IMG/VR virus record: IMGVR_UViG_3300045988_090162
Source: a virus
Strand: one strand, 5' to 3'
DNA: 64,000 nucleotides
The position numbers were made by a program, and so were the translations under genes. The first letter of the stretch is position 1. Every line of letters starts with the position of its first letter. The notes below the pieces were generated by a model. It made no database searches. It saw nothing but the letters and a program-made list of their open reading frames with translations, and was not told the origin of the DNA. This document shows, in pieces, positions 13,313 through 34,802 of this stretch.

Positions 13313-13792
13313 TTACACAATCATATACTCGTCTACAAGACCATTGGCCTTAGCGCGAGCAGGCATATAACGACCAGCCCACATGCGCTTGATAACATCA
13401 TCAGGTACACGTTCAACACCTCCGCGCTTAGCATTCTGCGGCAAAGCGATGTCAAGACCACGGTTGAAGTACACAAGGATAATCTTGTCGGCGTTCTTGC
13501 CGCAATTCTCAACGGTCTTGCGAAGCGACTTCCAAGAAATATGAGTAGCATCTGCAATAACATTAATATCATTGCAAAGATTGTCGTTAATCTGACTATA
13601 GAAACCCTTAATAACGTCACTCTCATACTTAAAGTAATCAATAGAAGGAAGAAAATCAGGGTCATTTGCCATATACTCAAAGCGAATATAATCACGAGAA
13701 ACAATTTTGGCATTAAGTTCAGCACTATGCTCATGCGCCCAAAACGACTTGCCGCAACCAGGAATTCCTGCTAGAATATAAAGATTAGCCAT
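13313..13792 (-). CDS. polynucleotide 5'-kinase-like P-loop kinase (T4 Pnk kinase-domain-like)
   Basis: N-terminal LAGIPGCGKSFWA Walker A followed by the SRD.IR motif typical of T4 Pnk/AAA_33 kinases. Confidence 0.65.
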   Translation of the reverse strand: MANLYILAGIPGCGKSFWAHEHSAELNAKIVSRDYIRFEYMANDPDFLPSIDYFKYESDVIKGFYSQINDNLCNDINVIADATHISWKSLRKTVENCGKNADKIILVYFNRGLDIALPQNAKRGGVERVPDDVIKRMWAGRYMPARAKANGLVDEYMIV

Positions 13793-13856
13793 GTGACTCT
13801 CCTTCTTTTGGCTTTCTTTAAATATATTATATCATTTTGAATTGCTGTATGTCAAT

Positions 13857-13895
13857 AAAAAAATAGGGCAACTTCTTTTATAGAAGTTACCCTAC
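13857..13895 (-). terminator. rho-independent terminator
   Basis: minus strand GTAGGGTAACTTCTATAAAAGAAGTTGCCCTATTTTTTT. Confidence 0.65.
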
Positions 13896-14198
13896 ATAAT
13901 GTGTGGAGGAAGTGACTGGTGACGCTCCAGATTCCCTGTTAAGGAACGCACCGCTTTCTAGGCGGGCCTAGTCGCTGGACTAGTTGATTAGCCAAAAGCA
14001 GGATGCGTATTCACGGCGCATCCAGAGGGTCTGTTTTTACGGTGTTTCAGCTCACCAATTACTCCGTGAAAGCACTTGCTTATCTCCTAGCAAGAAGGCT
14101 TGCTATCCTCTCGAATAGCTATGCGGCGTTGCCTATTCTACCGCAAAAGCTGTTTTCGGCACAACTTCAAAGCCACCGCCAATAGGGGCGTGAATGTA

Positions 14199-14290
14199 TG
14201 GCGGGGCAACTGGCATTCGAAGCCAATACTTGAATCACAAGTACGTTCTGATTAGCAGTCAGACCTAACTCCCCGTTAGTTGTCTGCCCC
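14199..14290 (-). tRNA. tRNA-Ser (anticodon GCT), long variable arm, CCA encoded
   Basis: Hand-folded: acceptor GGGGCAG/TTGCCCC, D-arm AACT-AACGGGG-AGTT, anticodon stem TCTGA/TCAGA with loop CTGCTAA, variable-arm stem ACTTG/CAAGT, T-loop TTCGAAT, 3' GCCA. Confidence 0.75.
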
Positions 14291-14388
14291 ATATAAACAG
14301 CATCAGACCTCTCTCTGTCAAGTTTCGCTATAAAGAAGCGCTGCGAGTTATCATTATTCTGTATCTAATGCTGTTTTAAACAGGTAGG

Positions 14389-14459
14389 AGCGGCGTAAGA
14401 GATTCTAACTCTCACCAAAGGCTTGGAAGGCCTGTATGCTAACATTACACCAACGCCGC
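14389..14459 (-). tRNA. tRNA-Gly (anticodon TCC)
   Basis: acceptor GCGGCGT/ACGCCGC, anticodon loop CTTCCAA, T-arm GAGAG-TTAGAAT-CTCTT; anticodon stem is only 4 bp. Confidence 0.6.
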
Positions 14460-14467
14460 ATATAAGG

Positions 14468-14540
14468 TGTCCACGGGTAGAATTGAACTACCGACACGCA
14501 GATTTTCAGTCTGCTGCTCTACCTACTGAGCTACATGGAC
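14468..14540 (-). tRNA. tRNA-Phe (anticodon GAA)
   Basis: acceptor GTCCATG/CGTGGAC, D-arm GCTC-AGTAGGTA-GAGC, anticodon stem GCAGA/TCTGC with loop CTGAAAA, T-arm GGTAG-TTCAATT-CTACC. Confidence 0.8.
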
Positions 14541-14544
14541 ATGC

Positions 14545-14619
14545 TGGCTTCTCTATTATGACTCGAACATAAACTAACGGAACCAAAATCCGTTGTGCTG
14601 CCAATTACACCATAGAGAA
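14545..14619 (-). tRNA. tRNA-Gln (anticodon TTG), CCA encoded
   Basis: acceptor TTCTCTA/TAGAGAA (perfect), D-arm GTGT-AATTGGCA-GCAC, anticodon stem ACGGA/TCCGT with loop TTTTGGT, T-arm TTATG-TTCGAGT-CATAA, 3' GCCA. Confidence 0.8.
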
Positions 14620-14626
14620 ATTTTCG

Positions 14627-14698
14627 TGCGCTAGTGGAGATTCGAACTCCAATCTCAAGAACGTCACCTTGCAATTTTGCCAGTTAAACTACTAACAC
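14627..14698 (-). tRNA. tRNA-like gene with atypical anticodon arm (possible pseudo-tRNA or non-canonical tRNA)
   Basis: Good acceptor (GTGTTAG/CTAGCGC with two G·U pairs), D-arm GTTT-AACTGGCA-AAAT and T-arm TGGAG-TTCGAAT-CTCCA; the anticodon region folds only as CAAGG/TCTTG around a 6-nt loop TGACGT (or a 4-bp stem with an 8-nt loop). Confidence 0.45.
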
Positions 14699-14819
14699 AC
14701 TACTCACTAGTGGCAATTATTTTAAGGATAATTGCAAAACCTTTTAGTCTAAAGCTAGCTAGGCTTTAGAAGTTGAAAATATAGGGTTAAGCTATTTCCT
14801 ATATTTTCTATATTTTCTA

Positions 14820-14925
14820 TATATCTAGTCGAATGTAAGAACCGTATTTAACCAATTAAACTACCTCGCACTTGCCGTGCGAGAGTGGGAGTCGAACCAA
14901 CATCTGCTCTATGCTCGACTTGATA
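14820..14925 (-). ncRNA. candidate Y RNA-like (YrlA-like) ncRNA with a permuted tRNA-like module
   Basis: Downstream of promoter 14931-14959. The minus strand reads 5' GTCGAGC..., then T-arm GTTGG-TTCGACT-CCCAC, then hairpin CTCGCAC-GGCAA-GTGCGAG (acceptor-like stem closed by a loop), then a D-arm-like GTAGTTTAATTGGTTAAAT, then ...CATTCGAC pairing back to the 5' end. tRNA parts are present but in YrlA-like permuted order. Confidence 0.45.
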
Positions 14926-14930
14926 ACTAT

Positions 14931-14978: not shown

Positions 14979-15054
14979 TGGTGGCTCGCCTGAGTCTCGA
15001 ACTCAGAACCGTCAGATTAAAAGTCTGCTACTCTACCAATTGAGTTAACGAGCC
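14979..15054 (-). tRNA. tRNA-Lys (anticodon TTT), CCA encoded
   Basis: acceptor GGCTCGT/GCGAGCC, D-arm ACTC-AATTGGTA-GAGT, anticodon loop CTTTTAA, T-arm CTGAG-TTCGAGA-CTCAG, 3' ACCA. Confidence 0.8.
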
Positions 15055-15071
15055 ATATGCAATCTAGCACG

Positions 15072-15144
15072 CTCTGGCGGCAGGGGTCGAACCTGCGACA
15101 TCTTGATTAACGGTCAAGCGTTCTACCAGCTGAACTACACCAGA
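15072..15144 (-). tRNA. tRNA-Asn (anticodon GTT)
   Basis: acceptor TCTGGTG/CGCCAGA, D-arm GTTC-AGCTGGTA-GAAC, anticodon stem CTTGA/TCAAG with loop CCGTTAA, T-arm GCAGG-TTCGACC-CCTGC. Confidence 0.7.
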
Positions 15145-15208
15145 GTGTACTAGATTATAGGTTAATTATACAATATTTATATGCAATTGTCAAGGAAAAA
15201 GTTAGAGG

Positions 15209-15280
15209 TACGAAATGAAAGAGTCGAACTTTCGTCTTCCCGTTATAAGCAGGATGTCCTAACCGTTGTACGAATTTCGC
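15209..15280 (-). tRNA. tRNA-Ile (anticodon TAT; AUA-decoding, or CAT-like if modified)
   Basis: acceptor GCGAAAT/ATTTCGT, anticodon stem TCCTG/CGGGA with loop CTTATAA, T-arm GAAAG-TTCGACT-CTTTC; D-stem has one mismatch. Confidence 0.6.
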
Positions 15281-16725: not shown

Positions 16726-17322
16726 TTACTCTCCAAGCTCAATCTTTTTCTGCTGGACATCGAGCCAAATATCATGAATGCTGACAGGAGTAAGATTATT
16801 CGTGTCAACGCCTACGTGATATGTCCAATCAACAAGACCCTTGGGAGCCGCGTCATGGACATGACCATACAGAATGACATTGGCGCTGTCTCCACGCATT
16901 TCCTCGGGACGCTCATGAATCATAATGAAACTGACATCGTTGTAATCAAGGCAAGACACCTTGTTTTCGATAATCCAGCCGAGCTTTTCCATTTCTGCAA
17001 TGCGCTTCTTGGTATCATGATTGCCGGGAATCACATGAATCTTGCCGTTGAGACGAGAGCCATATTTAGCTACAGTCTCAAGTGGTCCCATGAAGCAATC
17101 ACCAAGATGATAGACAGTATCATCAGGAGATACAACGGAATTCCAGTTTTTGACAATAGCTTCATTCATTTCTTTGACCGTATCAAACGGACGCGACTCT
17201 GGACAAAACTTGATAATATTCTCATGTTGAAAATGAGTATCAGAAATAACAAAAACACTCATTGAATCTCCTTTCGATTTCTTAAATATATTATAACATA
17301 ATATATAGCCAATAGTCAACAA
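16726..17322 (-). CDS. calcineurin-like metallophosphoesterase (protein/polynucleotide phosphatase-like)
   Basis: Motifs ISDTHF (GDxHG-like), GDCFMG (GDxxDRG-like), GNHD, and GHVH. Confidence 0.75.
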   Translation of the reverse strand: MLTIGYILCYNIFKKSKGDSMSVFVISDTHFQHENIIKFCPESRPFDTVKEMNEAIVKNWNSVVSPDDTVYHLGDCFMGPLETVAKYGSRLNGKIHVIPGNHDTKKRIAEMEKLGWIIENKVSCLDYNDVSFIMIHERPEEMRGDSANVILYGHVHDAAPKGLVDWTYHVGVDTNNLTPVSIHDIWLDVQQKKIELGE

Positions 17323-17956: not shown

Positions 17957-18322
17957 TTACAAGTGTACGATATACTGATATGTATCAAAATATCCACTGT
18001 GGCACTCAGTTATATCAGAATATAACTTTATATGGGATTTATTCGTAATTTTGTTTACTGGTATAGAATACATTAAACCAGTTGTACCATTTAAACAAAA
18101 TAATAAATCTACAGGATGGTTTGTTACATTATCATATTCTTTTCCATTAGTGCCACCACAACTTCTTAAAGATATAGTATTATCTTTTGACGTTGTACAT
18201 TTGCATTGTACAGTTTGAAAGACGCCATCTTTTTCAATAATTAAATCATACCACTGTGTATCAGACAAAGGAAGAGAGACAGTATAGCCATTAGAACCAT
18301 AATATGCAATAGCCACTGACAT
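17957..18322 (-). CDS. hypothetical protein
   Basis: 121-aa ORF. Confidence 0.5.
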   Translation of the reverse strand: MSVAIAYYGSNGYTVSLPLSDTQWYDLIIEKDGVFQTVQCKCTTSKDNTISLRSCGGTNGKEYDNVTNHPVDLLFCLNGTTGLMYSIPVNKITNKSHIKLYSDITECHSGYFDTYQYIVHL

Positions 18323-18947: not shown

Positions 18948-18992
18948 AGCTCCTTTTCTACTTTTGGATAAACTGAGTAGCTATCTACTCTG

Positions 18993-19064
18993 CTGGAATG
19001 GTAGGACTCGAACCTACAACATTTTGATTAACGGTTAAACGCTCTACCATTGAGCTACACTCCA
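18993..19064 (-). tRNA. tRNA, anticodon GTT (Asn-like); anticodon stem carries an A·C mismatch
   Basis: acceptor TGGAGTG/CATTCCA, D-arm GCTC-AATGGTA-GAGC, anticodon loop CCGTTAA, T-arm GTAGG-TTCGAGT-CCTAC. Confidence 0.55.
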
Positions 19065-19093
19065 GCAGGGTAGATAAGCCACACTTTGTTCTA

Positions 19094-19162
19094 TTGGAGT
19101 GACAAGACTCGAACTTGCGACACGTTGAGTTAACAACATTCTACCAACTGAATTACACTCCA
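19094..19162 (-). tRNA. tRNA-like gene (69 nt) with atypical anticodon arm (6-nt loop TTAACT)
   Basis: acceptor TGGAGTG/CACTCCA, D-arm ATTC-AGTTGGTA-GAAT and T-arm GCAAG-TTCGAGT-CTTGT are fine; the anticodon region folds only as TGTTG/CAACG around TTAACT. Confidence 0.4.
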
Positions 19163-19691: not shown

Positions 19692-20224
19692 ATGGTCAAC
19701 CTAACGGCGTACTAAGCATTACACTTCTGGGTGTTGGCAATAAGCCGCAGGGTCACTGGTTTGTTGACGGTACTGTTGACTATCCTTTTTCCCTTTCCTT
19801 CTAGAAATATTATATCAAATTATTCAACTATTTGTCAAATAATTTTTTATAGCAAAAATTGGTCGCGAGGTGTTTCTGCTGCCGAAACTTAACAGAGCTT
19901 ATGAGACTCCGTGAGATACTGACCTCCCACCCGCAATTAAAGTAGTAATTTTCACATCTGCCGAGGTTTGAAAACTACCAAAATATACCAGATTCCTCTT
20001 CCCCTAGGCGCTTCTTTTCAAGTATGCGCTGGCCCGCATTGTCTACGGCTACAGAGACGGCATATATAAAATCTTGCAAGCAAGATAATATAATCACGTG
20101 GACGGTTTCAAACTGGGAAAACCGCCAACCCTTTAATCTATAGTCCCTGCAAAAGACTATAGAAGTCGGGAGACATTTACCTTGCAGCGATAACCTCTCC
20201 CCAGGCATTGGATATAACACAATC

Positions 20225-20305
20225 GCTAGGTGCTATTCTCACCAATTAAACTAACCGCCGTTAACTCGGCCTGTCCGGGAGTCGAACCCACATCTTCACC
20301 ATCAC
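20225..20305 (-). ncRNA. candidate Y RNA-like ncRNA, paralogue of 14820..14925 (may extend 3'-ward to ~19850)
   Basis: Begins just downstream of promoter 20320-20348. The minus strand reads GATGTGGGTTCGACTCCCGG (T-arm-like), then ACAG-GCCG-AGTTAA-CGGC (hairpin), then GGTTAGTTTAATTGGTGAG (D-arm-like). Same module order and near-identical promoter/5' leader as the 14.9 kb element. Confidence 0.4.
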
Positions 20306-20319
20306 GATTTGTTAACTAT

Positions 20320-20348: not shown

Positions 20349-20437
20349 GTAATTTTTTAACTAGGCTGGCTCTTTCTGTGCTGCCCAGAAATTTTATGAT
20401 TCAGAGTCATATGTTCTACTGTTGAACTAAGAGCCAA

Positions 20438-20513
20438 TGGTCTGCTCAGCTCGACTTGAACGAGCAACCCCAAGTTCCCAAAACTTGAGCGCTACCAATT
20501 GCGCTATGAGCAG
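20438..20513 (-). tRNA. tRNA-Pro (anticodon TGG), CCA encoded
   Basis: acceptor CTGCTCA/TGAGCAG (perfect), D-arm GCGC-AATTGGTA-GCGC, anticodon stem CAAGT/ACTTG with loop TTTGGGA, T-arm GCTCG-TTCAAGT-CGAGC, 3' ACCA. Confidence 0.8.
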
Positions 20514-21314: not shown

Positions 21315-21582
21315 TTTATCACCAACTTAAATAATAAATGGAGCCAACTGACAGTGCTGCCCTGTCTGCTTCGCTTTACAAGAGCGATGTATTACTGTTA
21401 TACTAAGCTGGCTTTACCAAAAGAAAAATGAGCCTGCAATACTCTAGAAATCTTGCAGGCTCTAACACCACTATTACAATATAATAGTTGCGCAACAAAA
21501 ATTATAACTTTTTGCCCAGAACTTTTATTTTGTAACTAAAGTTATTATACCATATTAGTATAACGTCTGTCAAGAACTTTTT

Positions 21583-25274: not shown

Positions 25275-26219
25275 TTAATTTTCAAACCAGTTACGCAACT
25301 CGATTACCGAAGGGCAAGTTCCTCGACCTTGCTCGCGGCACTCTTCCACGAACTCAGGAATTGCATCCATAAGACGAGGTTCAAATGCCAGCTTGGTCTT
25401 GATATTTTTGATAGTCTCAATATCACGTCCAGTCCAAACCTGCTGCAAAACTCCACGAGCCTTTTTCCAGTTCTTGTACCAAGGGGTCTTATATTTCACC
25501 ATGAATCCGTCTGCATCCTCGAAGACAAAGCCCTCGATGTATGCACGTGCGGACCACTTGTCAATGAAAGATTCAAACTCCTGCCAGTTAGCAATGACTT
25601 TGCTAAGAACCTTGCAATAGAATCCAAAATGTCCAGCTACATCAATAAGGGTATAGTACCCCGCATGGCTATAGTTGAAATCATTGTACACCAAGTCCAA
25701 AAGCACGAGGTGAGGATGCGAATACTCAACGATATGCGGGTCATGGATTGGGTCAATACACTCGAAGACAGCAGTGCAGTCATTCTTGCGCAGATATTCT
25801 GCGAATTCCTCCTGCTGTGCAGTGGTCAACGTCTTGTCAAGAACGTCACGGATATATCCTGCGAAATCTCCCTCATTCGTGCTCTTGGATGCGATGAACA
25901 GCTTACCGTCCTCGGTCGGGTCGGCAGAAATCATCGCAAGAAATCCGTTAGACTTGACATATGCGCACACAGGAAACACAAGGTTCTCGCGTAGGCTATC
26001 CATTTCAGTCTCAGGACGCTCTCCGATGTTGAAGAACTTGTTGTACGAACGTGCAACAACCTTATTATCTTTCACGAAAAGTCCGCGCGCCTTTACATTG
26101 ATGGAGTCCCATGCTTGGTTGAAAAAGCACTTGTTGGAGAAATTAAAAGACGAGATTCCATTTGCAAGATGCTTCTCGCGCACAAACGAGCTATTACGCA
26201 GCATATCGATTTCGTTCAT
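25275..26219 (-). CDS. RNA ligase, Rnl1/Trl1-like (KxNG nucleotidyltransferase)
   Basis: Start trimmed to MNEIDML (cassette promoter and CCAAGAGAGAGG leader at 26225-26290); motif I AYVKSNGFLAMIS resembles the Trl1/Rnl1 KANG lysine motif. Confidence 0.55.
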   Translation of the reverse strand: MNEIDMLRNSSFVREKHLANGISSFNFSNKCFFNQAWDSINVKARGLFVKDNKVVARSYNKFFNIGERPETEMDSLRENLVFPVCAYVKSNGFLAMISADPTEDGKLFIASKSTNEGDFAGYIRDVLDKTLTTAQQEEFAEYLRKNDCTAVFECIDPIHDPHIVEYSHPHLVLLDLVYNDFNYSHAGYYTLIDVAGHFGFYCKVLSKVIANWQEFESFIDKWSARAYIEGFVFEDADGFMVKYKTPWYKNWKKARGVLQQVWTGRDIETIKNIKTKLAFEPRLMDAIPEFVEECREQGRGTCPSVIELRNWFEN

Positions 26220-26290: not shown

Positions 26291-26320
26291 AAAAAAAGGG
26301 AGAGGAACTAGTCCTCTCCC
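26291..26320 (-). terminator. rho-independent terminator
   Basis: minus strand GGGAGAGGACTAGTTCCTCTCCCTTTTTTTG. Confidence 0.65.
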
Positions 26321-28441: not shown

Positions 28442-29416
28442 TTATTTTTCATCGTATGCGGCAAAAGCATTTAGCATTTTAGTAATAAGAGCGTGCCTTA
28501 CAACATCTGCTTCTGTCATGCGGACAACGCCGATACCAGATACATCTTTCAGACTATTGGCAAGATATTCAAGACCGCTTTCGCCTTTGGAATCTTGCTG
28601 AACCAAGTCGCCGCACAAGACAATCTTAGAATCTTCTCCTAAACGTGTGACTGCAAGTTTTCCTAGAATCGTATTCATATTCTCTGCTTCATCCACGAGA
28701 AGGAAAGTCTTATATAGAGAACATCCGCGCATATATCCTAGCGGTAACATCTTAATTTTACCCTTTTCGATATATGAATCAAGTTTCTCACGCCCGAGAA
28801 CTCGTTCAAATACATCCATCATAGGAAGTGCATATAGTGAAAACTTTTCATCGGCAGTGCCGGGAAGTGCGCCTAAATCTGCTTCACCTTTTGCTGAAAC
28901 CATTGGACGAGAGATAACGATAGTATCTACATTCTTATTGATAAGCTGAGACAGAGCATAGCATACTGCTGTATAGGTCTTGCTTGCACCAGGAGGAGCA
29001 ATACAAATAGTAATAGCATTGTGCCGCATACTATTTAGATATTCAAGTTGACCTTCTGTGCGGACCTTGATTTCTTTCTTACCATATTTCAAAATCGTGG
29101 TAGAAGAATCAGAATTGTCAAAGATGCCGCCATCCGCACTTTGCCTTGCAAGAAGCTGTACTTCATCTGTACTGATTTCGTCTTTTGAGCAAGCAATTTC
29201 AATCAGCTTTTCAAATACCTCTTGAGCTTGATGTACAGATTTCTCCTTGCCAAAAATTACGATATTATTCTTTTCCTTAGAGCGTCCAAGATTAACACGT
29301 AGAGAGTCATCAATTTGCTCTTTAATGGCCTTCACATACCTATCTGATGGGCCTAGCACATTGACGGCATCAATACCACGAGGAATAGACACGTTAACTT
29401 GGATATTGTTGTTCAA
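28442..29416 (-). CDS. phoH: PhoH-like ATPase
   Basis: ICIAPPGASKTYTAV Walker A, DEAENM Walker B-like, and overall PhoH layout. Confidence 0.7.
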   Translation of the reverse strand: MNNNIQVNVSIPRGIDAVNVLGPSDRYVKAIKEQIDDSLRVNLGRSKEKNNIVIFGKEKSVHQAQEVFEKLIEIACSKDEISTDEVQLLARQSADGGIFDNSDSSTTILKYGKKEIKVRTEGQLEYLNSMRHNAITICIAPPGASKTYTAVCYALSQLINKNVDTIVISRPMVSAKGEADLGALPGTADEKFSLYALPMMDVFERVLGREKLDSYIEKGKIKMLPLGYMRGCSLYKTFLLVDEAENMNTILGKLAVTRLGEDSKIVLCGDLVQQDSKGESGLEYLANSLKDVSGIGVVRMTEADVVRHALITKMLNAFAAYDEK

Positions 29417-29429: not shown

Positions 29430-30023
29430 TTAATCTAATACTAGCTCCGTATTCTTCTTATATCGCTCATAGTCCTCTTGCGACACATCGAATACAGTAA
29501 AGATACCTGTCTTAATATACACGCCACCCATATTACCGTCACGCTTAATGCGACCGAGCATGTCTTTCCATCCGTCCTCAATCACTTCAACTCGTTGTTT
29601 GTCTGGCGATACGACATATGCAGCAGAATATTTGCGACCTTCTTCTTTGCTTACTTCACCGCTAAGATAAAGATACTGTGGAGTTTTACTAATATCTTCC
29701 TCATATGAACGATATATAGAAACCATGTTATCCATGAGGTTTCCTAAAACATAGATTTGAAGGATAGGACGCACATGCTTGTAATCACAAATGACAGTAT
29801 TGAGCCAATCGTTTAAGGACATGTCCTCGCATTTAAACTCTGCGCCAAAATCGTCCATCAATATAACTTCAAAGTCAAGTTCTTCTTTATCATCTTCGAT
29901 GTTAAAGTCAATCGCTTCGGAGATATAATATTCAATTTCATCATATGAAATAAGATTATCAAATTGTCCATATAAAGTATATGGAATATCATTTACAATA
30001 GCTTGAATCTTGCAATAACGCAT
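29430..30023 (-). CDS. hypothetical protein
   Basis: 197-aa ORF. Confidence 0.5.
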   Translation of the reverse strand: MRYCKIQAIVNDIPYTLYGQFDNLISYDEIEYYISEAIDFNIEDDKEELDFEVILMDDFGAEFKCEDMSLNDWLNTVICDYKHVRPILQIYVLGNLMDNMVSIYRSYEEDISKTPQYLYLSGEVSKEEGRKYSAAYVVSPDKQRVEVIEDGWKDMLGRIKRDGNMGGVYIKTGIFTVFDVSQEDYERYKKNTELVLD

Positions 30024-30024
30024 A

Positions 30025-30597
30025 TTAACCTTTCATCCTATAGCGTCGAGAGTATTCCATCATGCAACATGCTGCGCTTTGCGCAACATTCAATGAGCGG
30101 CAAGAGCCATATTGGCGAATATAAATCATTTCATCACACTTGTCAATGATTTCTTTTGGTAGCCCATCACACTCATTCCCATATACAAACGCAGACTTCA
30201 TTGGAATGTCAACATCATAAATATTCTGCGGATTATACTCTGGAATATTATCTACAGCAAAAATAGTATATCCAAGAGGATGAAGAATCCCAAGAACTTC
30301 ATCGAAATCATCAGCATGATATACAGTTTCATATCTATGAGTGCTAATTGAGCCACGTCTATCCCACTTCTTGCGGCCAACGATATAGACTTCTTTCCCA
30401 AGAAACGCATTATGCGCACGGATGCCGCTAGCAATATTGATATTGTACCCTACATTCATAAAAATAGAAACCATTGGGAGCCTATTCTTTTGTAGGTCAG
30501 CTTTAATCTCTTCATCAGTCCACTTTTTATACGCATCAATGACATTTCGCTTTGCCGTCTCACAGAACTCTGTGCTGTAGCCATACTGAGTAATCAT
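30025..30597 (-). CDS. SPOUT (SpoU/TrmH-family) RNA 2'-O-methyltransferase
   Basis: C-terminal VYGNECDGL ... IRQYGSCRSLNVAQSAACCMME matches the SpoU motifs (GNE.GL, SLNV...A). Confidence 0.7.
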   Translation of the reverse strand: MITQYGYSTEFCETAKRNVIDAYKKWTDEEIKADLQKNRLPMVSIFMNVGYNINIASGIRAHNAFLGKEVYIVGRKKWDRRGSISTHRYETVYHADDFDEVLGILHPLGYTIFAVDNIPEYNPQNIYDVDIPMKSAFVYGNECDGLPKEIIDKCDEMIYIRQYGSCRSLNVAQSAACCMMEYSRRYRMKG

Positions 30598-31528: not shown

Positions 31529-32461
31529 TTATTTTGTATTGACTACTGGCGTTGACCCTTGCGGCACAACTACAGTATTGCCATTCTTTGACATTTCCTT
31601 TAGAGCATCAATGTACTCTTGGGTTAGAACATTATCAGTTAGAGACTCATTAAGCACACGGTTTGCTTCTGCTTCTTTCGTAGCTTCGATAACCTTAGTC
31701 TCACCCTTAATCTTTGCAGTTTCCTGCTGGTTTTGAGCCTTGGCTTTCTCTACTTCTGCGGCCTGAGAATCAGCATACGCGTCAGTAATAGACTTAGCAT
31801 AAGAAATATCCTGAACGCTTACCTGCTCAACAGTAAGACCAATCTTAGACCACTTCTTTTCAAGAGCCTTTTGAACAGCCTTGGTATACTGAGCGCGGTC
31901 AGTTAGCATTGTAATGGTATCGAATTGACCAGAAACTTCACGTGCTACAGAACGGAGGTCATTAGCTGCATAATTCTTGGTGAAGTTCTCTTGGGTGCCG
32001 TATTCAGTGTAAAGATACTCAGCTGTCTTCGGGTCAAGGCTATAGTTAATCTGAATATCAACATTAGCAGAAGAACCTGACTTATCATTTACAGTTACGC
32101 AAGGACCCTCAGCAGAACCACCATCATAGGAGTATTCTGTGTCTTTACCGTAAAAGTTGATTAGGTTATTACGTGTATCAAATGTAATCACATCATTCCA
32201 AGGCGTAGTAAAGTGAAAGCCTGCATCTGTAGTAGACCCAGCTAGATTGCCGCCAAGAGAACGAAGAACAACTACTTCACCTACGTCTTGTGAGTAGACA
32301 CAGCCAAGGCCAATAGCAATTAGACCAAGCACGATAACTACCGCTCGTAGCCCTAGTGGAACACGCTCTTCATGTTTATCTTCTTTGAAGAAAGATAGAC
32401 ATACGGCAATTCCTACAACCGTAATGATTACACCAATAATAAAAATAAGAATTTTAAACAT
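31529..32461 (-). CDS. SPFH/band-7 (prohibitin/HflK-like) membrane protein
   Basis: N-terminal TM helices, SQDVGEVVVLRSLGG...TTPW..VITFDTR core, and a C-terminal Ala/Glu/Lys coiled coil. Confidence 0.65.
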   Translation of the reverse strand: MFKILIFIIGVIITVVGIAVCLSFFKEDKHEERVPLGLRAVVIVLGLIAIGLGCVYSQDVGEVVVLRSLGGNLAGSTTDAGFHFTTPWNDVITFDTRNNLINFYGKDTEYSYDGGSAEGPCVTVNDKSGSSANVDIQINYSLDPKTAEYLYTEYGTQENFTKNYAANDLRSVAREVSGQFDTITMLTDRAQYTKAVQKALEKKWSKIGLTVEQVSVQDISYAKSITDAYADSQAAEVEKAKAQNQQETAKIKGETKVIEATKEAEANRVLNESLTDNVLTQEYIDALKEMSKNGNTVVVPQGSTPVVNTK

Positions 32462-32504
32462 TATAACCTTTCATCATAGTTGACTTTAATATTCAATTGT
32501 AAGA

Positions 32505-33017
32505 CTAGATTGCTTTTAATTGGTCAATGATTGGCAAGATTTGCATATTGCTTGTGCCGATAGCGTAGTTTTGCTGCTCTGAAATAAATACAATCTTGTC
32601 AAACGGTTCATTGTCTTGTGGCGAAACTTTGCATCTATACATTTCTGCAATTTCCTTTTCACTTAGACGATGATATTTATCACGATTCTTATTGCGCGCA
32701 ACTGCTACATTTTTTGGAGTTTCAACCCAAACGCAAATAACTTCGCAGCCATTGTAATGTACATTGTTGAAAAACTTATCGCGTTGAGCGCGATTGATAT
32801 TGCGGTCATTCGCCACAACGTAACGATGTGATTTTAAGGCAATGTTAACTGCGTTATAAAAGCGCTTGTCAACTGTGTCGGCTTCTTCTGAATTATACAT
32901 GCGGCAATTATCTCTTTTGATTACCATACAGTCTTCATGTGAATCTTGAATTGCCTTTGCAAATACAGACTTACCGCTCTGCGTTACACCGCACATTAGA
33001 ATTAGCGTATGCTTCAT
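32505..33017 (-). CDS. P-loop NTPase (small kinase-like)
   Basis: MCGVTQSGKS Walker A at residues 8-17; 170 aa. Confidence 0.5.
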   Translation of the reverse strand: MKHTLILMCGVTQSGKSVFAKAIQDSHEDCMVIKRDNCRMYNSEEADTVDKRFYNAVNIALKSHRYVVANDRNINRAQRDKFFNNVHYNGCEVICVWVETPKNVAVARNKNRDKYHRLSEKEIAEMYRCKVSPQDNEPFDKIVFISEQQNYAIGTSNMQILPIIDQLKAI

Positions 33018-33023
33018 TTTTGC

Positions 33024-33404
33024 CTACCAATAGATAGTATACTTACTAATCGTAATATCAATTCGGTCAACGCCACGGAAATAAGTTACTTGATAATGTT
33101 CATTGCGTGTTACGTTATAGCCAAGAGACTCTTCAAGAGATGCAAATACTTCCTTCTGTGGATTGGTGAAGTCTTTCTCTGCGGCAGGAACGATGCTACC
33201 GCTCTGAACGATTTCTTCGTAGAAGTCAGATACATGCGGATAGAAGTCTACACTATTCTTACCATCATTGGCTGCTTTTTCAATATCTTTCATTACAATA
33301 TTGAAATAATCATATTTTTGAACTTGCTTGAACCGCTCTTCCCTTTTCTTCTTTAGAGCGACATAACGCATGTCACGTGCTTTTTCTGCTGTAATTGGTT
33401 CCAT
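33024..33404 (-). CDS. hypothetical protein
   Basis: 126-aa ORF; last gene of the leftward block. Confidence 0.5.
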   Translation of the reverse strand: MEPITAEKARDMRYVALKKKREERFKQVQKYDYFNIVMKDIEKAANDGKNSVDFYPHVSDFYEEIVQSGSIVPAAEKDFTNPQKEVFASLEESLGYNVTRNEHYQVTYFRGVDRIDITISKYTIYW

Positions 33405-33869
33405 GTAATATCCTTTCTTTTATGCGTTGGCTATATTATAAACCATAATCATATTGTATGTCAATACTTTTTAGAAAGAATTTTAATTAAAAATTTTTCT
33501 TGACAAAAGACTTGAAAATCATTATACTTTTAACTGGGTTGTTAAGGGGTTTACCCCTTAAATATATATAAAATAAATTATATTAGTTTATAATATAATT
33601 AAATTAGTTTATATATGTATATTGACTTTTATATATATAAGAGATATTATATAATTGTTTTATATATAAAAGATTTTATTATAAAGAAATTCCTGTGCTA
33701 CGCACAGTAATTTCTATTAAAAGAAGAGAAAAAGGATTAAAGAAAAATAAACTACTTTGCTATGCAAAGTAGTAAAAAGAAACAGTAAAAAGAGAAGAAA
33801 AAAAGTTTTTGCGTGCGGCCAAAAATTTGTGTATAATGTAATTACGAAAACAAGAGAAAGGATTTTATA
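33405..33869. promoter_or_regulatory. AT-rich strand-switch region with palindromes (divergent promoters; candidate origin)
   Basis: TTAAGGGGTTTACCCCTTAA palindrome at ~33545, perfect hairpins CTGTGCTACGCACAG and CTACTTTGCTATGCAAAGTAG, TATATA-rich repeats; TTGACA...TATACT at ~33500 and GTGTATAATG at ~33828. Confidence 0.5.
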
Positions 33870-34802
33870 ATGTCTCATTTCAATAAGTATGTGCATCTTG
33901 AGCGCTCGACTCGTGCAGAAGTTCAGAACTTTATCGGTCGTGACACAATTTTGCAGCCGAAGCTGGATGGTACGAATAGTTCTATCTGGGTAAACGATAA
34001 TGGAAATATTACTTGCGGTAGCCGTACTCGTGAGATTTCTATCGAGAAGGATAACGCTGGTTTCGCTGATTATATCACCAACACTGACGATACTGAGGTT
34101 AAGGCACTAAAGAATTGGTTGCTTGACCATCCTAATTATATCATTTACGGCGAGTGGCTTGGCGGTGTTGATGGCCGCAAGTTCACTGGTACTATCAAGA
34201 CTTATCTTGAAGGCGGATTCTTCATCTTTGATATTCTCAATACTAAGGATGGTGAGTATGTTGATTATGATGTATGGTGTCCAGTAGTTAGTAAGTTCTA
34301 TCATCGTTGCGTTCCTGTCATTTGCCGCATTAGCAACATGACTTGGGACGATGTGAACAAGCACGTTGACGAGTGTACTTACAATCTTCCAAAGGGGACT
34401 ATCGGTGAGGGCATCGTAATCAAGGCTTACCCTTGCGTGCGCGACCCATGGGGTAATGTTCAGATTGCCAAGATTGTTCGTGACGAGTGGCATCATTACA
34501 AGTCTAAGAAGAAGACTGTCTACACGGGCAATGACTCTTTGGAGAAGGAGTTTGTAGAGAAGTATTGCACTGAGGCTTTTGTCGAGAAGGAAGTCAATAA
34601 AGTTCTTATCGCTCTTGATATGGAGAAAATTGATTGCAAGAACGACAAGTTCTTCGGCATGGCTATCAATAAGGTTCTTGACGAACTTATGGAAGAGAAC
34701 TTCTGGGATTTCTTCAAGAAGAAGAAAGCTGCTTCTGTCAAACTGGCCGCAATCAAGGGTCTTACTCAAGCACGAGTACGCGAGTACATTCTTAACAACT
34801 AA
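33870..34802 (+). CDS. RNA ligase 2-like (Rnl2 family) nucleotidyltransferase
   Basis: FNKYVHLER...(22 aa)...KLDGTN (KxDG motif I) in the same arrangement as the T4 Rnl2 N-terminus (FKKYSSLEN...KIHGTN). Confidence 0.6.
   Translation: MSHFNKYVHLERSTRAEVQNFIGRDTILQPKLDGTNSSIWVNDNGNITCGSRTREISIEKDNAGFADYITNTDDTEVKALKNWLLDHPNYIIYGEWLGGVDGRKFTGTIKTYLEGGFFIFDILNTKDGEYVDYDVWCPVVSKFYHRCVPVICRISNMTWDDVNKHVDECTYNLPKGTIGEGIVIKAYPCVRDPWGNVQIAKIVRDEWHHYKSKKKTVYTGNDSLEKEFVEKYCTEAFVEKEVNKVLIALDMEKIDCKNDKFFGMAINKVLDELMEENFWDFFKKKKAASVKLAAIKGLTQARVREYILNN

What the first reader, a model, noticed from the sequence alone, without database searches (positions are those of the whole stretch)
13313..34802. Dispersed tRNA-repair/maintenance toolkit: Pnk-like kinase, metallophosphoesterase, two RNA ligases, SpoU methylase and a tRNA island
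The pieces are a T4 Pnk-like P-loop kinase (13313..13792), a calcineurin-type phosphoesterase (16726..17322), an Rnl1/Trl1-like KxNG ligase (25275..26219) and an Rnl2-like KxDG ligase (33870..34802). Together they supply the 5'-kinase, 2',3'-phosphatase and sealing activities needed to heal anticodon-nuclease breaks. The kinase, phosphoesterase and ligase are the same three activities found fused in bacterial Pnkp (e.g. Clostridium thermocellum), but here they are separate genes. A SpoU/TrmH 2'-O-methyltransferase (30025..30597) and at least nine tRNA genes with canonical cloverleaf folds sit in the same block. This suggests a counter-defence against host tRNA-targeting nucleases (PrrC/RloC/colicin-like).
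Basis: partly seen in the sequence, partly recalled or inferred. Interest (0 to 1): 0.6.

Follow-up and report, generated by a model that had tools for sequence, protein, structure and literature searches.

The report
Phage RNA-repair kit with tRNA island
An uncultured ~140-kb gut phage carries a full set of genes for mending broken RNA: two kinases, a phosphoesterase, two RNA ligases, a tip-adding enzyme, a methylase, a Ro60-like protein with two Y-RNA-like partners, and spare tRNAs; this kind of kit is already described in other large phages, so it is a new example, not a new idea.

Summary
All five proteins and the tRNA block are real, at the stated coordinates, and in the stated families.

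The kit is larger than described. It also has:
- a second Pnk-like kinase (32505-33017)
- a divergent RlaP-family nucleotidyltransferase (38311-39162)
- a Ro60/TROVE+vWA protein (36779-38209)
- two promoter-driven YrlA-like (Y RNA) genes inside the tRNA island (14823-14924, 20216-20313), with strong covariation support
- 14 tRNA or tRNA-like genes, four of them non-canonical but conserved

Comparative context supports a functional link. At about 40% identity, Rnl1 homologs are fused kinase-Metallophos-ligase proteins with Pnkp-like architecture. The window's phosphoesterase belongs to a different subfamily, yet in 4 of 6 unrelated phage contigs its homolog lies directly downstream of a kin1-like kinase. 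The gene set keeps its order in relatives at 51-79% identity.

A counter-defence role against tRNA nucleases is the best reading but is inferred. No nuclease, substrate or activity was tested.

The concept is published (T4 Pnkp/Rnl1; Iyer et al. 2021 on jumbo phages), so this is a new member of a known kind. The divergent YrlA-like RNAs and the odd tRNA-likes are the freshest parts.

The parts
13313..13792 (-). kin1: standalone Pnk-type 5'-OH polynucleotide kinase (159 aa)
   Evidence: AAA_33 3e-13. phrog_505 'polynucleotide kinase' 2e-17, and it matches the N-terminal part of the fused family phrog_8238. T4 Pnk catalytic residues are conserved. A perfect sigma-70-type promoter lies at 13855-13826.
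14199..14290 (-). tRNA-Ser(GCU), long variable arm
   Evidence: Found by relaxed ARAGORN. It folds as a cloverleaf.
14387..14619 (-). tRNA-Gly(UCC), tRNA-Phe(GAA), tRNA-Gln(UUG)
   Evidence: ARAGORN; Rfam tRNA 58-71 bits.
14626..14698 (-). Non-canonical tRNA-like with an 8-nt anticodon loop (GUGACGUU)
   Evidence: ARAGORN reports a 4-base anticodon. Rfam tRNA 37.6 bits. Conserved in relatives with compensatory stem changes.
14823..14924 (-). YrlA-like (Y RNA-like) RNA, copy 1: outer stem, inner stem, T-arm, closed acceptor-like hairpin, D-arm
   Evidence: Rfam YrlA 21.8 bits, below the gathering score of 69. Own covariance model 120 bits. Covariation across 23 sequences. A perfect promoter lies at 14959-14931.
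14979..15280 (-). tRNA-Lys(UUU), tRNA-Asn(GUU), tRNA-Ile(UAU)
16726..17262 (-). Metallophosphoesterase (178 aa from ATG 17262), aq_1665/YfcE-like; candidate 3'-end healing enzyme
   Evidence: Metallophos_2 7e-11. phrog_547 3.5e-45. PDB 1xm7 at 1e-19 by profile. Its homologs lie next to kin1-like kinases in 4 of 6 other phage contigs.
18391..18473 (-). tRNA-Leu(CAA)
   Evidence: ARAGORN.
18992..19064 (-). tRNA-Asn(GUU), second copy
19094..19162 (-). Non-canonical tRNA-like with a 6-nt anticodon loop; paralog of the adjacent tRNA-Asn
   Evidence: Rfam tRNA 44.9 bits. Conserved with T-stem covariation.
20216..20313 (-). YrlA-like RNA, copy 2 (paralog with a shorter acceptor-like hairpin)
   Evidence: Covariance model R1 35.5 bits, E 4e-8. 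Same promoter and leader as copy 1. Present in most relatives.
20366..20436 (-). tRNA-like 'Gln(CUG)' with odd T-loop GGCAGCA and a D-loop lacking GG
   Evidence: Rfam tRNA 46.2 bits. Fold. Identical in all 22 blastn matches among the fetched loci.
20438..20513 (-). tRNA-Pro(UGG)
21342..21412 (-). tRNA-like 'Thr(UGU)' with the same odd T-loop and D-loop
   Evidence: Rfam tRNA 42.2 bits. Compensatory T-stem and acceptor changes in relatives.
25275..26219 (-). Rnl1/Trl1-type ATP-dependent RNA ligase (314 aa), standalone ligase module of a Pnkp-like family
   Evidence: RNA_lig_T4_1 3e-41. Matches the C-terminal part of phrog_8238 at 2.6e-76. Trl1-LIG structures down to 8e-12. Motifs K89SNG, E153, E229 and K242/K244 are present.
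30025..30597 (-). SpoU/TrmH-class SPOUT 2'-O-methyltransferase (190 aa)
   Evidence: PF00588 1.5e-21. Best PDB hits are TARBP1, TrmH (Gm18) and TrmL. All NCBIfam equivalog scores are far below their cut-offs.
31529..32461 (-). Band7/SPFH protein; recurrent neighbour of the kinase/phosphoesterase genes in other phages, role unknown
   Evidence: Band_7 7e-30. Synteny in Twillingate, L077, L081 and L084.
32505..33017 (-). kin2: second Pnk-type P-loop kinase (170 aa)
   Evidence: AAA_33 8.5e-13. phrog_505 1.4e-13. NCBIfam bacterial Pnkp kinase region 2.9e-8. Catalytic residues are conserved.
33870..34802 (+). Rnl2-type RNA ligase (310 aa): N-terminal nucleotidyltransferase domain plus C-terminal helical domain
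   Evidence: PF09414 3e-17. phrog_548 3.5e-40. Profile search of PDB: NgrRnl 5e-13, T4 Rnl2 4e-6. AF2 pLDDT 91.5, and the Foldseek top hit is full-length T4 Rnl2 at 8e-15.
36779..38209 (+). Ro60/Rsr-like protein (TROVE + vWA with MIDAS motif DVSGSM)
   Evidence: TROVE 7e-14. phrog_850 'RNA-binding protein' matched over the full length, 6e-26. PDB 9l5y/9kop TROVE protein 3e-21 across both domains.
38311..39162 (+). Divergent RlaP-family Pol-beta nucleotidyltransferase (283 aa)
   Evidence: phrog_388 'nucleotidyltransferase' 2.7e-14. GS...SDVDT motif. 14 of 25 family members hit Pfam RlaP PF10127. The AF2 model has a KNTase/HalB-like fold. A relative has it 1.3 kb downstream of an Rnl2-like ligase.

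Best explanation
The window comes from an uncultured ~140-kb phage, probably of gut Bacillota. The phage encodes a multi-layered RNA damage-response kit, chiefly for tRNA.

(1) Replacement: about 10 canonical phage tRNAs.
(2) End healing: kin1 would phosphorylate 5'-OH ends. The metallophosphoesterase would remove 2',3'-cyclic or 3'-phosphate ends. kin2 is a second 5'-kinase, possibly with a different substrate range.
(3) Tip restoration: the RlaP-like nucleotidyltransferase would add back one or two lost 3' nucleotides.
(4) Sealing: the Rnl1/Trl1-type ligase would join breaks in single-stranded loops such as the anticodon loop. The Rnl2-type ligase would seal nicks in duplex RNA.
(5) Modification: the SpoU-class enzyme would 2'-O-methylate tRNA or tRNA-like RNA.
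(6) Scaffold or surveillance: the Ro60-like ring protein would partner with the two YrlA-like tRNA-mimic RNAs.

Several of the genes sit behind strong host-type promoters, which suggests early, independent expression (an inference).

The most likely purpose is to keep translation running when host tRNA-cleaving defence nucleases fire, as in the T4 Pnkp/Rnl1 versus PrrC paradigm.

Shown here: family membership, catalytic motifs, folds, RNA structure covariation, conserved synteny and gene fusions.
Inferred: every enzymatic activity, the substrates, the Ro60-RNA pairing and the counter-defence purpose.
For: Kinase catalytic residues align with the verified T4 Pnk domain.

Fusion evidence links kinase, phosphoesterase and Rnl1-type ligase. 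Twillingate gp176 and KKP_3916 gp79 are AAA_33-Metallophos-RNA_lig_T4_1 proteins. The homologs in L047, L048 and L050 are ~722-aa ORFs with an N-terminal kinase. Window kin1 and Rnl1 match the two ends of these proteins.

Neighbourhood evidence: homologs of the window MPE lie directly downstream of a kin1-like AAA_33 kinase in 4 of 6 unrelated large phage contigs. For the two kinases that were compared, identity to kin1 is 35% against 28% to kin2. Band_7, PIN-PhoH and PF09414 ligases are nearby. The RlaP-like gene sits 1.3 kb from an Rnl2-like ligase in relative L089.

The gene set (apart from the RlaP-like gene, which was not in that comparison) keeps its order in relatives at 51-79% protein identity.

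The YrlA-like RNAs have their own perfect promoters. Their structure is 91.8% paired against 76.3% in shuffles. 20 of 31 pairs show compensatory changes, against 3-5 in slid controls. A distant relative keeps the same permuted architecture and scores 31.8 bits with Rfam YrlA.

A separate DNA ligase and a replication module lie downstream.

Literature: the same kit (tRNAs, Rnl1/Rnl2, Pnk, phosphoesterases, RlaP, TROVE with a tRNA-like partner) is described for jumbo phages (PMC7824862). RlaP adds 1-2 NMP to damaged RNA 3' ends (PMC12776372). A metallophosphoesterase can act as a 2',3'-cyclic phosphodiesterase (PMC2190708, abstract).
Against: - No activity, substrate or host nuclease was tested or is testable here.
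- The genes are dispersed over 26 kb on two strands in separate transcription units, mixed with unrelated genes.
- The MPE's only solved relative (aq_1665) has no known function, and the MPE is not the Pnkp-type domain.
- All NCBIfam equivalog scores are far below their cut-offs, so exact specificities are open.
- The YrlA-like RNAs score below Rfam's gathering threshold, lack an exact GNCGAAN0-1G motif, and lie 16-22 kb from the TROVE gene on the other strand. Published YrlAs are nearly all within 4 kb on the same strand.
- T4 Rnl2's own biological role is still unknown (my knowledge).
Confidence: 0.65

Rival explanations
1. The enzymes serve housekeeping maturation and quality control of the phage's own large set of tRNAs, tRNA-like RNAs and Y-like RNAs. 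This would cover processing, 3'-end repair, modification and Ro60-mediated surveillance of misfolded RNAs. They would not repair nuclease damage inflicted by host defence.
For: The island holds 14 tRNA or tRNA-like genes plus 2 YrlA-like genes, and four of the tRNA-likes are structurally aberrant yet conserved. In bacteria, Ro60/Y RNA acts in structured-RNA degradation and rRNA maturation (PMC4201824). SpoU and RlaP-type enzymes act on tRNA ends and bodies.
Against: Ordinary tRNA maturation does not need 5'-OH kinases or ATP-dependent ligases. None of the phage tRNAs shows an intron or a split gene that would need ligation. Every characterised phage Pnk + Rnl1 pair works in break repair (my knowledge of T4).
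Confidence: 0.15
2. The metallophosphoesterase is not an RNA end-healing enzyme. It would instead degrade nucleotide second messengers of host defence (cyclic oligonucleotides or ADPr derivatives) or act on DNA. The kit would then lack a dedicated 3'-phosphatase, or rely on a host enzyme.
For: Its only solved relative, aq_1665, has unknown function. It does not match the Pnkp-type central domain. Calcineurin-like phosphodiesterases of phages (T5 A1-like) are proposed to target signalling nucleotides (PMC7824862). In two contigs that encode an MPE homolog or a family relative (L081, L088), a separate Metallophos-family gene, not the homolog itself, sits next to a NADAR gene.
Against: It lies directly downstream of a kin1-like polynucleotide kinase in 4 of 6 unrelated phage contigs, sometimes with only a 4-nt gap. 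Kinase-Metallophos-ligase fusions show that pairing this superfamily with Pnk and Rnl1 is a recurrent solution.
Confidence: 0.15
3. The kinases, the phosphoesterase and the Rnl2-like ligase act on DNA or on RNA-DNA junctions during replication or repair (DNA end cleaning, sealing RNA-primed nicks), not on tRNA.
For: The Rnl2-like, Ro60-like and RlaP-like genes open the plus-strand unit that continues into topoisomerase II, DNA ligase, a RecA-like ATPase and a DnaB helicase. T4 Pnkp also works on DNA ends, and Rnl2-family enzymes seal nicks in duplexes (my knowledge).
Against: A dedicated ATP-dependent DNA ligase is present. The Rnl1/Trl1-type ligase family is RNA-specific, and its best solved relatives are tRNA ligases. 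kin1 and the MPE flank the tRNA/Y-RNA island. RlaP acts on RNA only (PMC12776372).
Confidence: 0.07
4. The co-occurrence is a chance accumulation of independently acquired accessory genes with no joint function.
For: The genes are dispersed, have separate promoters and terminators, and are interleaved with homing endonucleases (HNH at 27000-27647, GIY-YIG at 20676-21314) that signal frequent gene flux.
Against: The same combination recurs as fusions and as adjacent genes in unrelated phages. It is also retained in order across relatives at 51-79% identity.
Confidence: 0.03

Closest known systems
Phage T4 Pnkp + Rnl1 tRNA-repair pathway (counter to the PrrC anticodon nuclease), plus T4 Rnl2
   Same: It has a 5'-OH polynucleotide kinase with the same catalytic residues. 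It has an Rnl1-family ligase. It has an Rnl2-type ligase whose model best matches full-length T4 Rnl2. It has phage-encoded tRNAs.
   Different: The kinases are standalone and lack T4's fused HAD-type 3'-phosphatase. The candidate phosphatase is a separate metallophosphoesterase. The Rnl1-type ligase has KxNG like Trl1, is closer to fungal Trl1-LIG than to T4 Rnl1, and falls far below the T4 RnlA equivalog cut-off (35 against 242 bits). The host and its nuclease are unknown.
Bacterial Pnkp (Clostridium thermocellum type) and phage-encoded fused kinase-Metallophos-ligase proteins (Staphylococcus phage Twillingate gp176, Alicyclobacillus phage KKP_3916 gp79; PHROG 8238)
   Same: The three activities are the same. 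Window kin1 and Rnl1 are homologous to the N- and C-terminal parts of the phage fusion proteins.
   Different: Here the genes are split: a standalone ligase, two standalone kinases, and a phosphoesterase from a different MPE subfamily (aq_1665/YfcE-like, not lambda-phosphatase-like) that does not match the fusion's central domain. Pfam scans of the larger ORFs up to 51848 found no Hen1 partner. The only methyltransferase found is a SpoU-class enzyme.
RNA-repair and tRNA-provisioning repertoire of jumbo phages (Iyer, Anantharaman, Krishnan, Burroughs, Aravind 2021, Viruses 13:63, section 3.4.9)
   Same: The parts list is essentially the same: tRNA arrays, combinations of Rnl1 and Rnl2, polynucleotide kinases, phosphoesterases (calcineurin-like in a minority), the RlaP nucleotidyltransferase, and a TROVE protein with a tRNA-like partner in a small subset.
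   Different: This genome is about 140 kb (contig sizes), below the jumbo range. It belongs to an uncultured lineage with no DNA-level relative among 50,697 deposited phages. It has no RtcB, HAD or 2H enzyme among the ORFs I scanned.
Bacterial and mycobacteriophage Ro60 (Rsr) with YrlA Y RNAs (Chen, Sim, Wurtmann, Wolin et al. 2014, RNA 20:1715; Rfam RF02553)
   Same: There is a TROVE+vWA protein. The RNAs have a stem enclosing a T-arm, a closed acceptor-like hairpin and a D-arm, which is the YrlA tRNA-mimic architecture. YrlA is the best Rfam family for them.
   Different: The scores (21.8 and 31.8 bits) are below the gathering score of 69. There is no exact GNCGAAN0-1G motif. The RNAs lie 16-22 kb from the TROVE gene on the opposite strand and inside a tRNA array, each behind its own consensus promoter. 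Published YrlAs are nearly all within 4 kb on the same strand. There are two paralogs, and copy 2 has a reduced acceptor hairpin.

Membership tests
T4 Pnk-type 5'-OH polynucleotide kinase (P-loop) | Walker A GxxxxGK[ST] plus catalytic Asp and Arg (T4 D35, R38) and lid Arg (T4 R126) | tested here: met
   An alignment with the T4 pseT kinase domain (identity of that sequence verified) shows GKS, D, R and N..R invariant in kin1, kin2 and five homologs.
T4 Pnk-type 5'-OH polynucleotide kinase (P-loop) | Significant sequence or profile similarity to characterised polynucleotide kinases | tested here: met
   phrog_505 'polynucleotide kinase': 2e-17 for kin1, 1.4e-13 for kin2. The NCBIfam bacterial Pnkp kinase region hits kin2 at 2.9e-8. 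blastp of T4 Pnk gives 6.6e-5 for kin1 and 5e-3 for kin2. The best PDB hit for kin1 is PSTK, a sister clade.
T4 Pnkp (bifunctional kinase-phosphatase) | C-terminal HAD (DxDxT) 3'-phosphatase domain fused to the kinase | tested here: not met
   kin1 (159 aa) and kin2 (170 aa) consist of the kinase domain only.
Bacterial Pnkp (kinase-metallophosphoesterase-ligase, Hen1-partnered) | All three domains in one polypeptide | tested here: not met
   They are separate genes at 13313, 16726 and 25275. No remnant of the kinase or MPE lies upstream of Rnl1 (tblastn).
Bacterial Pnkp (kinase-metallophosphoesterase-ligase, Hen1-partnered) | Lambda-phosphatase-type central metallophosphoesterase | tested here: not met
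   The window MPE gives no significant match to the central domain of the Twillingate or KKP_3916 fusion proteins, and none to phrog_8238. Its best relative is aq_1665.
Bacterial Pnkp (kinase-metallophosphoesterase-ligase, Hen1-partnered) | Adjacent Hen1 3'-terminal 2'-O-methyltransferase | tested here: not met
   No Hen1-type methyltransferase appeared among the window ORFs scanned with Pfam. Only a SpoU-class enzyme was found. ORFs under 100 aa and the ORFs beyond 51848 were not scanned.
Rnl1/Trl1 RNA ligases (PF09511) | Pfam RNA_lig_T4_1 above the gathering score, with nucleotidyltransferase motifs I (KxxG), III, IV and V | tested here: met
   142 bits against a cut-off of 28.3. K89SNG, E153, E229 and K242-x-K244 are present. 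Trl1-LIG structures match down to 8e-12.
T4 RnlA equivalog (NCBIfam TIGR02308) | Score above the equivalog cut-off, including the C-terminal tRNA-specificity domain | tested here: not met
   35 bits against a cut-off of 242, and only the nucleotidyltransferase region aligns.
Rnl2-type RNA ligases | KxDG nucleotidyltransferase domain (PF09414) followed by a C-terminal helical domain, with a full-length fold match to T4 Rnl2 | tested here: met
   PF09414 63.7 bits against 27. K31LDG and motifs Ia, III, IIIa, IV and V are present. The AF2 model has pLDDT 91.5. The Foldseek top hits are 2hvr and 2hvq (full-length T4 Rnl2) at 8e-15. By sequence profile, the NTase domain is nearer to NgrRnl (5e-13) than to T4 Rnl2 (4e-6).
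Calcineurin-like metallophosphoesterases | Metal-binding motifs DxH, GD, GNH[DE], H and GHxH, with Pfam above the gathering score | tested here: met
   Metallophos_2 42.8 bits against 27. D8-x-H10, G54-D55, G80-N81-H82, H116 and G133-H134-x-H136 are invariant across 20 homologs.
RNA 2',3'-cyclic phosphodiesterase / 3'-phosphatase (end-healing function) | Demonstrated activity on 2',3'-cyclic-phosphate or 3'-phosphate RNA ends | not testable with these tools
   Only genomic association with Pnk-like kinases is available.
SpoU/TrmH SPOUT 2'-O-methyltransferases | PF00588 above the gathering score, with SPOUT motifs 1-3 | tested here: met
   77.4 bits against 29.7. The motifs NIASGIR, FVYGNECDGLP and SLNVAQSAA are visible in the sequence. 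PDB hits are TARBP1, TrmH and TrmL.
Defined SpoU equivalogs (TrmL, TrmH, TrmJ, RlmB) | Score above an equivalog cut-off, which would fix the target nucleotide | tested here: not met
   The best is TrmL at 40.9 bits against a cut-off of 190.6. All others are lower.
Ro60/Rsr | TROVE (HEAT-repeat ring) domain followed by a vWA domain with a MIDAS motif | tested here: met
   TROVE 52 bits against 23. DVSGSM lies at residues 297-302. A full-length two-domain match to PDB 9l5y/9kop scores 3e-21. phrog_850 matches over the full length. The NCBIfam Rsr equivalog is not reached (16 against 900).
YrlA Y RNA (Rfam RF02553) | Score at or above Rfam's gathering score (69 bits) | tested here: not met
   21.8 bits for copy 1. 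No hit for copy 2. 31.8 bits for the version in distant relative L072.
YrlA Y RNA (Rfam RF02553) | Stem enclosing a tRNA-like module (T-arm, closed acceptor stem, D-arm), supported by covariation | tested here: met
   The structure was modelled. It is 91.8% paired, and 20 of 31 pairs show double changes against 3-5 in slid controls. Distant relatives keep the same architecture.
YrlA Y RNA (Rfam RF02553) | Encoded within about 4 kb of the Ro60 gene on the same strand, with a 5'-proximal GNCGAAN0-1G motif (Chen et al. 2014) | tested here: not met
   The RNAs are 16-22 kb away on the opposite strand. Copy 1 has GUCGAG and copy 2 has AUCGUG at the corresponding place.
RlaP (PF10127) RNA-ligase-associated Pol-beta nucleotidyltransferase | Match to PF10127, the Pol-beta GS...DxD signature, and genomic association with an RNA ligase | tested here: inconclusive
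   The window protein itself has no Pfam hit at E<=0.01. However, 14 of 25 aligned homologs hit RlaP, the best at 4e-6. G37-S38...D49-V-D51 are invariant. The fold is KNTase/HalB-like. The gene lies 3.5 kb downstream of the Rnl2-like ligase here and 1.3 kb in L089.

The most novel reading that the evidence does not exclude
The tRNA island may be more than a spare-parts store. It could be an RNA-based arm of the counter-defence.

The two promoter-driven YrlA-like tRNA mimics would load the phage Ro60-like ring to recruit the RlaP/Rnl2 repair enzymes (or a host exonuclease) onto broken tRNAs.

The four conserved tRNA-like RNAs have aberrant anticodon loops (6 nt, 8 nt) or a non-canonical T-loop/D-loop pair. 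They would act as cleavage-resistant substitutes or as decoys/inhibitors for anticodon nucleases.

Together this would be a phage-encoded Ro-Y RNP and decoy-tRNA system wired to RNA repair.
Probability: 0.1. Interest if true: 0.75.

Novelty: new member of a known kind. Interest (0 to 1): 0.35.

Why it matters
Phage RNA-repair kits are the counter-move to a fast-growing list of tRNA-cleaving defence systems. Most biochemistry, however, comes from T4 and a few Shuman-lab enzymes.

This lineage is abundant in metagenomes: the closest Rnl2-like and MPE protein clusters each hold more than 1000 member sequences. It offers a compact, fully 'unbundled' version of the kit:
- standalone kinases
- a non-Pnkp-type phosphoesterase of untested activity
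- a minimal Trl1-like ligase
- an Rnl2
- an RlaP
- a Ro60 with two small, easily synthesised Y-like RNAs

That makes it a convenient source of single-activity enzymes. It is also a test bed for three open questions. Does the aq_1665-like phosphoesterase family heal RNA 3' ends? What does RlaP do next to Rnl2? What is a viral Ro60-Y RNA particle for?

None of this overturns current understanding.

Tried and rejected
- Rfam YrlA hit at 19011-19139 (41 bits). Rejected as an artefact. It spans the 3' half of a degenerate tRNA-Asn paralog and the 5' half of the next tRNA-Asn, which share an acceptor stem.
- Cytidine-deaminase-family ORF 27659-28102 as a tRNA adenosine deaminase (TadA). Rejected. 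The best NCBIfam hit is ComEB/dCMP-deaminase-like.
- Rnl2-like as the phage's DNA ligase or a capping enzyme. Rejected. A separate ATP-dependent DNA ligase lies at 43590-44687, and the top fold matches are RNA ligases.
- Window MPE as the missing middle domain of a split Pnkp. Rejected by tblastn and PHROG.
- A remnant kinase or MPE pseudogene upstream of Rnl1. None found.
- RNAalifold on a plain MAFFT alignment of both YrlA-like paralog families recovered only the T-arm, because the variable acceptor hairpin was misaligned. I solved this by hand-defining the structure on the copy-1 family and realigning with a covariance model.
- A further Y RNA close to the TROVE gene. Rfam E-value search of 33000-47000 found nothing.
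- PDB sequence searches for the RlaP-like protein gave only spurious or no hits.
- Pfam and PHROG scans of the unknown ORFs in and around the region (orf197 at 29430-30023, orf126 at 33024-33404, 23919-24731, 35913-36740, and ten ORFs between 973 and 9746) found no further RNA-repair domains such as 2H, HD, HAD, RtcB, Tpt1 or a CCA-adding enzyme.
- Host assignment via GTDB genomes gave only gut-MAG bins (Coprobacillus, Acutalibacteraceae, Muribaculaceae), which are unreliable for phage contigs.
- megablast against deposited phages matched only a 51-nt tRNA-Gln segment.

Full report
**What the window is.** The 64-kb window has about 38% G+C. Coding strand and GC skew switch near 33.5-33.9 kb. 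megablast of 13000-35000 against 50,697 deposited phage genomes matched only a 51-nt tRNA segment. IMG/VR, in contrast, holds about 25 close relatives at 76-99% protein identity. They are contigs of up to ~147 kb, mostly from one metagenome. Two more diverged contigs also turned up. More distant homologs come from large metagenomic contigs, some of them binned into gut Clostridia-type MAGs. Consensus TTGACA-N17/18-TATAAT promoters and AGGAG-type ribosome-binding sites fit a Bacillota-like host. This host assignment is an inference.

**Checking the observation.** All five proteins exist at the stated coordinates and exceed Pfam gathering scores: AAA_33 (13313-13792), Metallophos_2 (16726-17322), RNA_lig_T4_1 (25275-26339), RNA_ligase PF09414 (33870-34802) and SpoU_methylase (30025-30597).
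- The phosphoesterase most likely starts at ATG 17262.
- ARAGORN finds 10 tRNAs. Rfam finds 12 above threshold, three of them new. Relaxed ARAGORN adds a tRNA-Ser. That makes 14 tRNA or tRNA-like genes between 14199 and 21412, ten of them canonical.

**The kinases.** kin1 matches PHROG 505 'polynucleotide kinase' and the N-terminal part of PHROG 8238, a 737-position kinase-to-ligase fusion family. I verified that my recalled T4 Pnk kinase-domain sequence is 100% identical to T4 pseT. I then aligned it with kin1 and relatives. The P-loop GKS, the catalytic Asp and Arg (T4 D35, R38) and the lid Asn/Arg (T4 R126 region) are invariant. Neither kinase has T4's fused HAD phosphatase.

**The ligases.**
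- The Rnl1-type protein has K89-S-N-G and motifs III, IV and V. Its best solved relatives are fungal Trl1 ligase domains. It matches the C-terminal part of PHROG 8238 at 2.6e-76.
- Its homologs at about 40% identity in Staphylococcus phage Twillingate (gp176) and Alicyclobacillus phage KKP_3916 (gp79) are single AAA_33-Metallophos-RNA_lig_T4_1 proteins. Three ~185-kb IMG/VR contigs carry ~722-aa ORFs with an N-terminal kinase and the C-terminal ligase match. This is the domain order of bacterial Pnkp. The window lineage, including its 60%-identity relatives, has the ligase module alone.
- The Rnl2-like protein has K31-L-D-G and the other nucleotidyltransferase motifs. By profile, its catalytic domain is closest to Naegleria RNA ligase and then to T4 Rnl2. 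A confident AF2 model (pLDDT 91.5) shows an N-terminal catalytic domain plus a C-terminal helical domain. Its top Foldseek hits are full-length T4 Rnl2.
- A distinct ATP-dependent DNA ligase lies downstream in a replication module with topoisomerase II, a RecA-like ATPase and DnaB. The 'DNA ligase or capping enzyme' alternatives therefore fail.

**The phosphoesterase.** It has every calcineurin-type metal-binding motif. It is not the lambda-phosphatase-type domain found in Pnkp-like fusions: it matches neither their central region nor PHROG 8238. Its only clear solved relative is the structural-genomics protein aq_1665, so its chemistry is unknown.
- The argument for an end-healing role is contextual. 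In 4 of 6 unrelated large phage contigs that I examined, its homolog (about 48-50% identity in those four) lies directly downstream of an AAA_33 kinase.
- The two of these kinases that I compared resemble kin1 more than kin2 (35% against 28% identity).
- A Band_7 gene often follows, and PIN-PhoH and PF09414 ligases lie nearby.
- In the window, kin1 and the phosphoesterase are 3 kb apart, with the tRNA/Y-RNA island between them. kin2 sits next to Band7, and PhoH is nearby. The window therefore looks like a scattered version of a recurrent module.

**Additional members.**
- ORF 36779-38209 is a Ro60/Rsr-like protein: a TROVE domain plus a vWA domain with a DVSGSM MIDAS motif. It gives a full-length match to solved TROVE proteins and to a phage 'RNA-binding protein' PHROG.
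- The next gene, 38311-39162, has the Pol-beta nucleotidyltransferase signature GS...DVD and a KNTase/HalB-like predicted fold. It belongs to a family in which 14 of 25 members hit Pfam RlaP, the 'RNA-ligase-associating Pol-beta' family. The window protein itself does not reach significance.
- In relative L089 this gene lies 1.3 kb downstream of the Rnl2-like ligase with no TROVE gene between them. Rnl2-RlaP is therefore the older pair, and Ro60 looks like an insertion. RlaP enzymes add one or two nucleotides to damaged RNA 3' ends (PMC12776372).

**Y-RNA-like genes.** A 280-nt gap in the tRNA array contains a perfect consensus promoter followed by a circularly permuted tRNA-like module: T-arm, an acceptor-like stem closed by a loop, then a D-arm, all enclosed by two stems.
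- Rfam's best family for it is YrlA, but at 21.8 bits against a gathering score of 69.
- A paralog with the same promoter and leader lies at 20216-20313.
- A covariance model built on the copy-1 family found both copies across the relatives.
- On 23 sequences the structure is 91.8% paired, against 76.3% in shuffles. 20 of 31 pairs carry compensatory changes, against 3-5 in slid controls. The alignment is model-fitted, so this leans towards the structure, but the margin is large.
- The two diverged relatives keep the same architecture with a different sequence and score 31.8 bits with Rfam YrlA.
- A stronger-looking YrlA hit at 19011-19139 is an artefact of two tandem paralogous tRNAs.
- Published YrlAs, including those of 22 phages, lie almost always within 4 kb of Ro60 on the same strand and carry a GNCGAAN0-1G motif (PMC4201824). 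Here the RNAs are 16-22 kb away on the other strand, and the motif is only approximated (GUCGAG). I call them divergent YrlA-like RNAs. Pairing with the phage Ro60 is inferred, not shown.

**Conservation and expression.** In the two diverged relatives the set keeps its order: TROVE 66%, Rnl2 75%, kin2 51%, Band7 79%, SpoU 65%, Rnl1 60%, MPE 59% and kin1 79% identity. PhoH and orf197 are absent there. The RlaP-like gene was not part of this comparison. Seven perfect sigma-70-type promoters lie on the minus strand of 13-33 kb. They include sites just upstream of kin1, of both Y-like RNAs and of a tRNA cluster. The MPE and Rnl1 each have a near-consensus promoter preceded by a terminator. These are pattern matches. 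They suggest independent, early-type expression rather than one operon.

**Interpretation.** The most economical reading is a layered RNA-damage response:
- replacement tRNAs
- 5' and 3' end healing (kin1 with the MPE; kin2)
- nucleotide restoration (RlaP-like)
- sealing (Rnl1-type for loops, Rnl2-type for duplex nicks)
- 2'-O-methylation (SpoU-class)
- a Ro60-Y RNA particle as scaffold or surveillance factor

The purpose would be to counter host tRNA-cleaving defences, as with T4 Pnkp/Rnl1 and PrrC. The parts list and this logic are already laid out for jumbo phages, including calcineurin-like phosphatases in a minority, RlaP tracking the ligases, and TROVE with a tRNA-like partner in a small subset (PMC7824862). 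The finding is therefore a new member of a known kind, in a non-jumbo, uncultured lineage. The rivals are less well supported but not excluded: housekeeping of the phage's own RNAs, a signalling-nucleotide role for the MPE, DNA-end functions, or chance co-occurrence. Every activity remains untested.

**Limits.**
- I saw only 64 kb of a ~140-kb genome.
- ORFs under about 100 aa and the ORFs beyond 51848 were not profile-searched.
- Host and host nucleases are unknown.
- NCBIfam equivalog cut-offs were never reached, so substrate specificities, including the SpoU target and the difference between kin1 and kin2, are open.

Noticed in passing
window 14823-14924 (-) and 20216-20313 (-): Two paralogous YrlA-like (Y RNA-like) genes sit inside the tRNA island. 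Each is a permuted tRNA mimic behind its own perfect TTGACA-N17-TATAAT promoter. They are conserved with covariation across about 20 related phage contigs but score below Rfam's threshold.
   Followed up: yes
window 36779-38209 (+) and 38311-39162 (+): A Ro60/Rsr-like TROVE+vWA protein is followed directly by a divergent RlaP-family nucleotidyltransferase. In relative L089 the RlaP-like gene follows the Rnl2-like ligase with no TROVE gene between them.
   Followed up: yes
window 20366-20436 (-) and 21342-21412 (-): Two paralogous tRNA-like genes (anticodons CUG and UGU) share a non-canonical T-loop GGCAGCA and a D-loop (A/C)AACAGUA(A/G) without the GG. ARAGORN misses them, while Rfam scores them at 42-46 bits. 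Relatives show compensatory T-stem and acceptor changes, so they are maintained. Whether they are charged is unknown.
   Followed up: partly
window 14626-14698 (-) and 19094-19162 (-): Two tRNA-like genes have an 8-nt (GUGACGUU) and a 6-nt (UUAACU) anticodon loop. Both are conserved in relatives with compensatory stem changes. They could be frameshift-type or decoy tRNAs, but their function is unexplained.
   Followed up: partly
window 31529-32461 (-), 28442-29416 (-); loci L001, L077, L079, L081, L084: Band7/SPFH and PhoH (often PIN-PhoH) genes recur next to the kinase/phosphoesterase or fused Pnkp-like genes in unrelated phages. This suggests a wider conserved module whose Band7 and PhoH roles are unknown.
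   Followed up: partly
window 17957-18322 (-), 20676-21314 (-), 27000-27647 (-), 45030-45914 (+): A PD-(D/E)XK nuclease, two GIY-YIG nucleases and one HNH homing-type endonuclease are interspersed among the tRNA and repair genes. This is consistent with frequent gene insertion, and may explain why the kit is scattered.
   Followed up: no
window 29430-30023 (-): A 197-aa ORF has no Pfam or PHROG match. Its start overlaps the SpoU stop, so the two may be translationally coupled. It is conserved in close relatives (91%) but absent from the 60%-identity relatives.
   Followed up: no
locus L088 2020-4488 (+): A 176-kb phage contig that carries an RlaP-like homolog also encodes an 822-aa protein with major-vault-protein shoulder/Vault_3 hits. 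A NADAR-Metallophos-AAA_33 cluster lies nearby.
   Followed up: no
window 14700-14822 (-): Downstream of YrlA-like copy 1 there are short AU-rich direct repeats (UAUAGAAAAUAUAGAAAAUAUAGGAAAUAG) and two hairpins before the next tRNA. They were not analysed.
   Followed up: no
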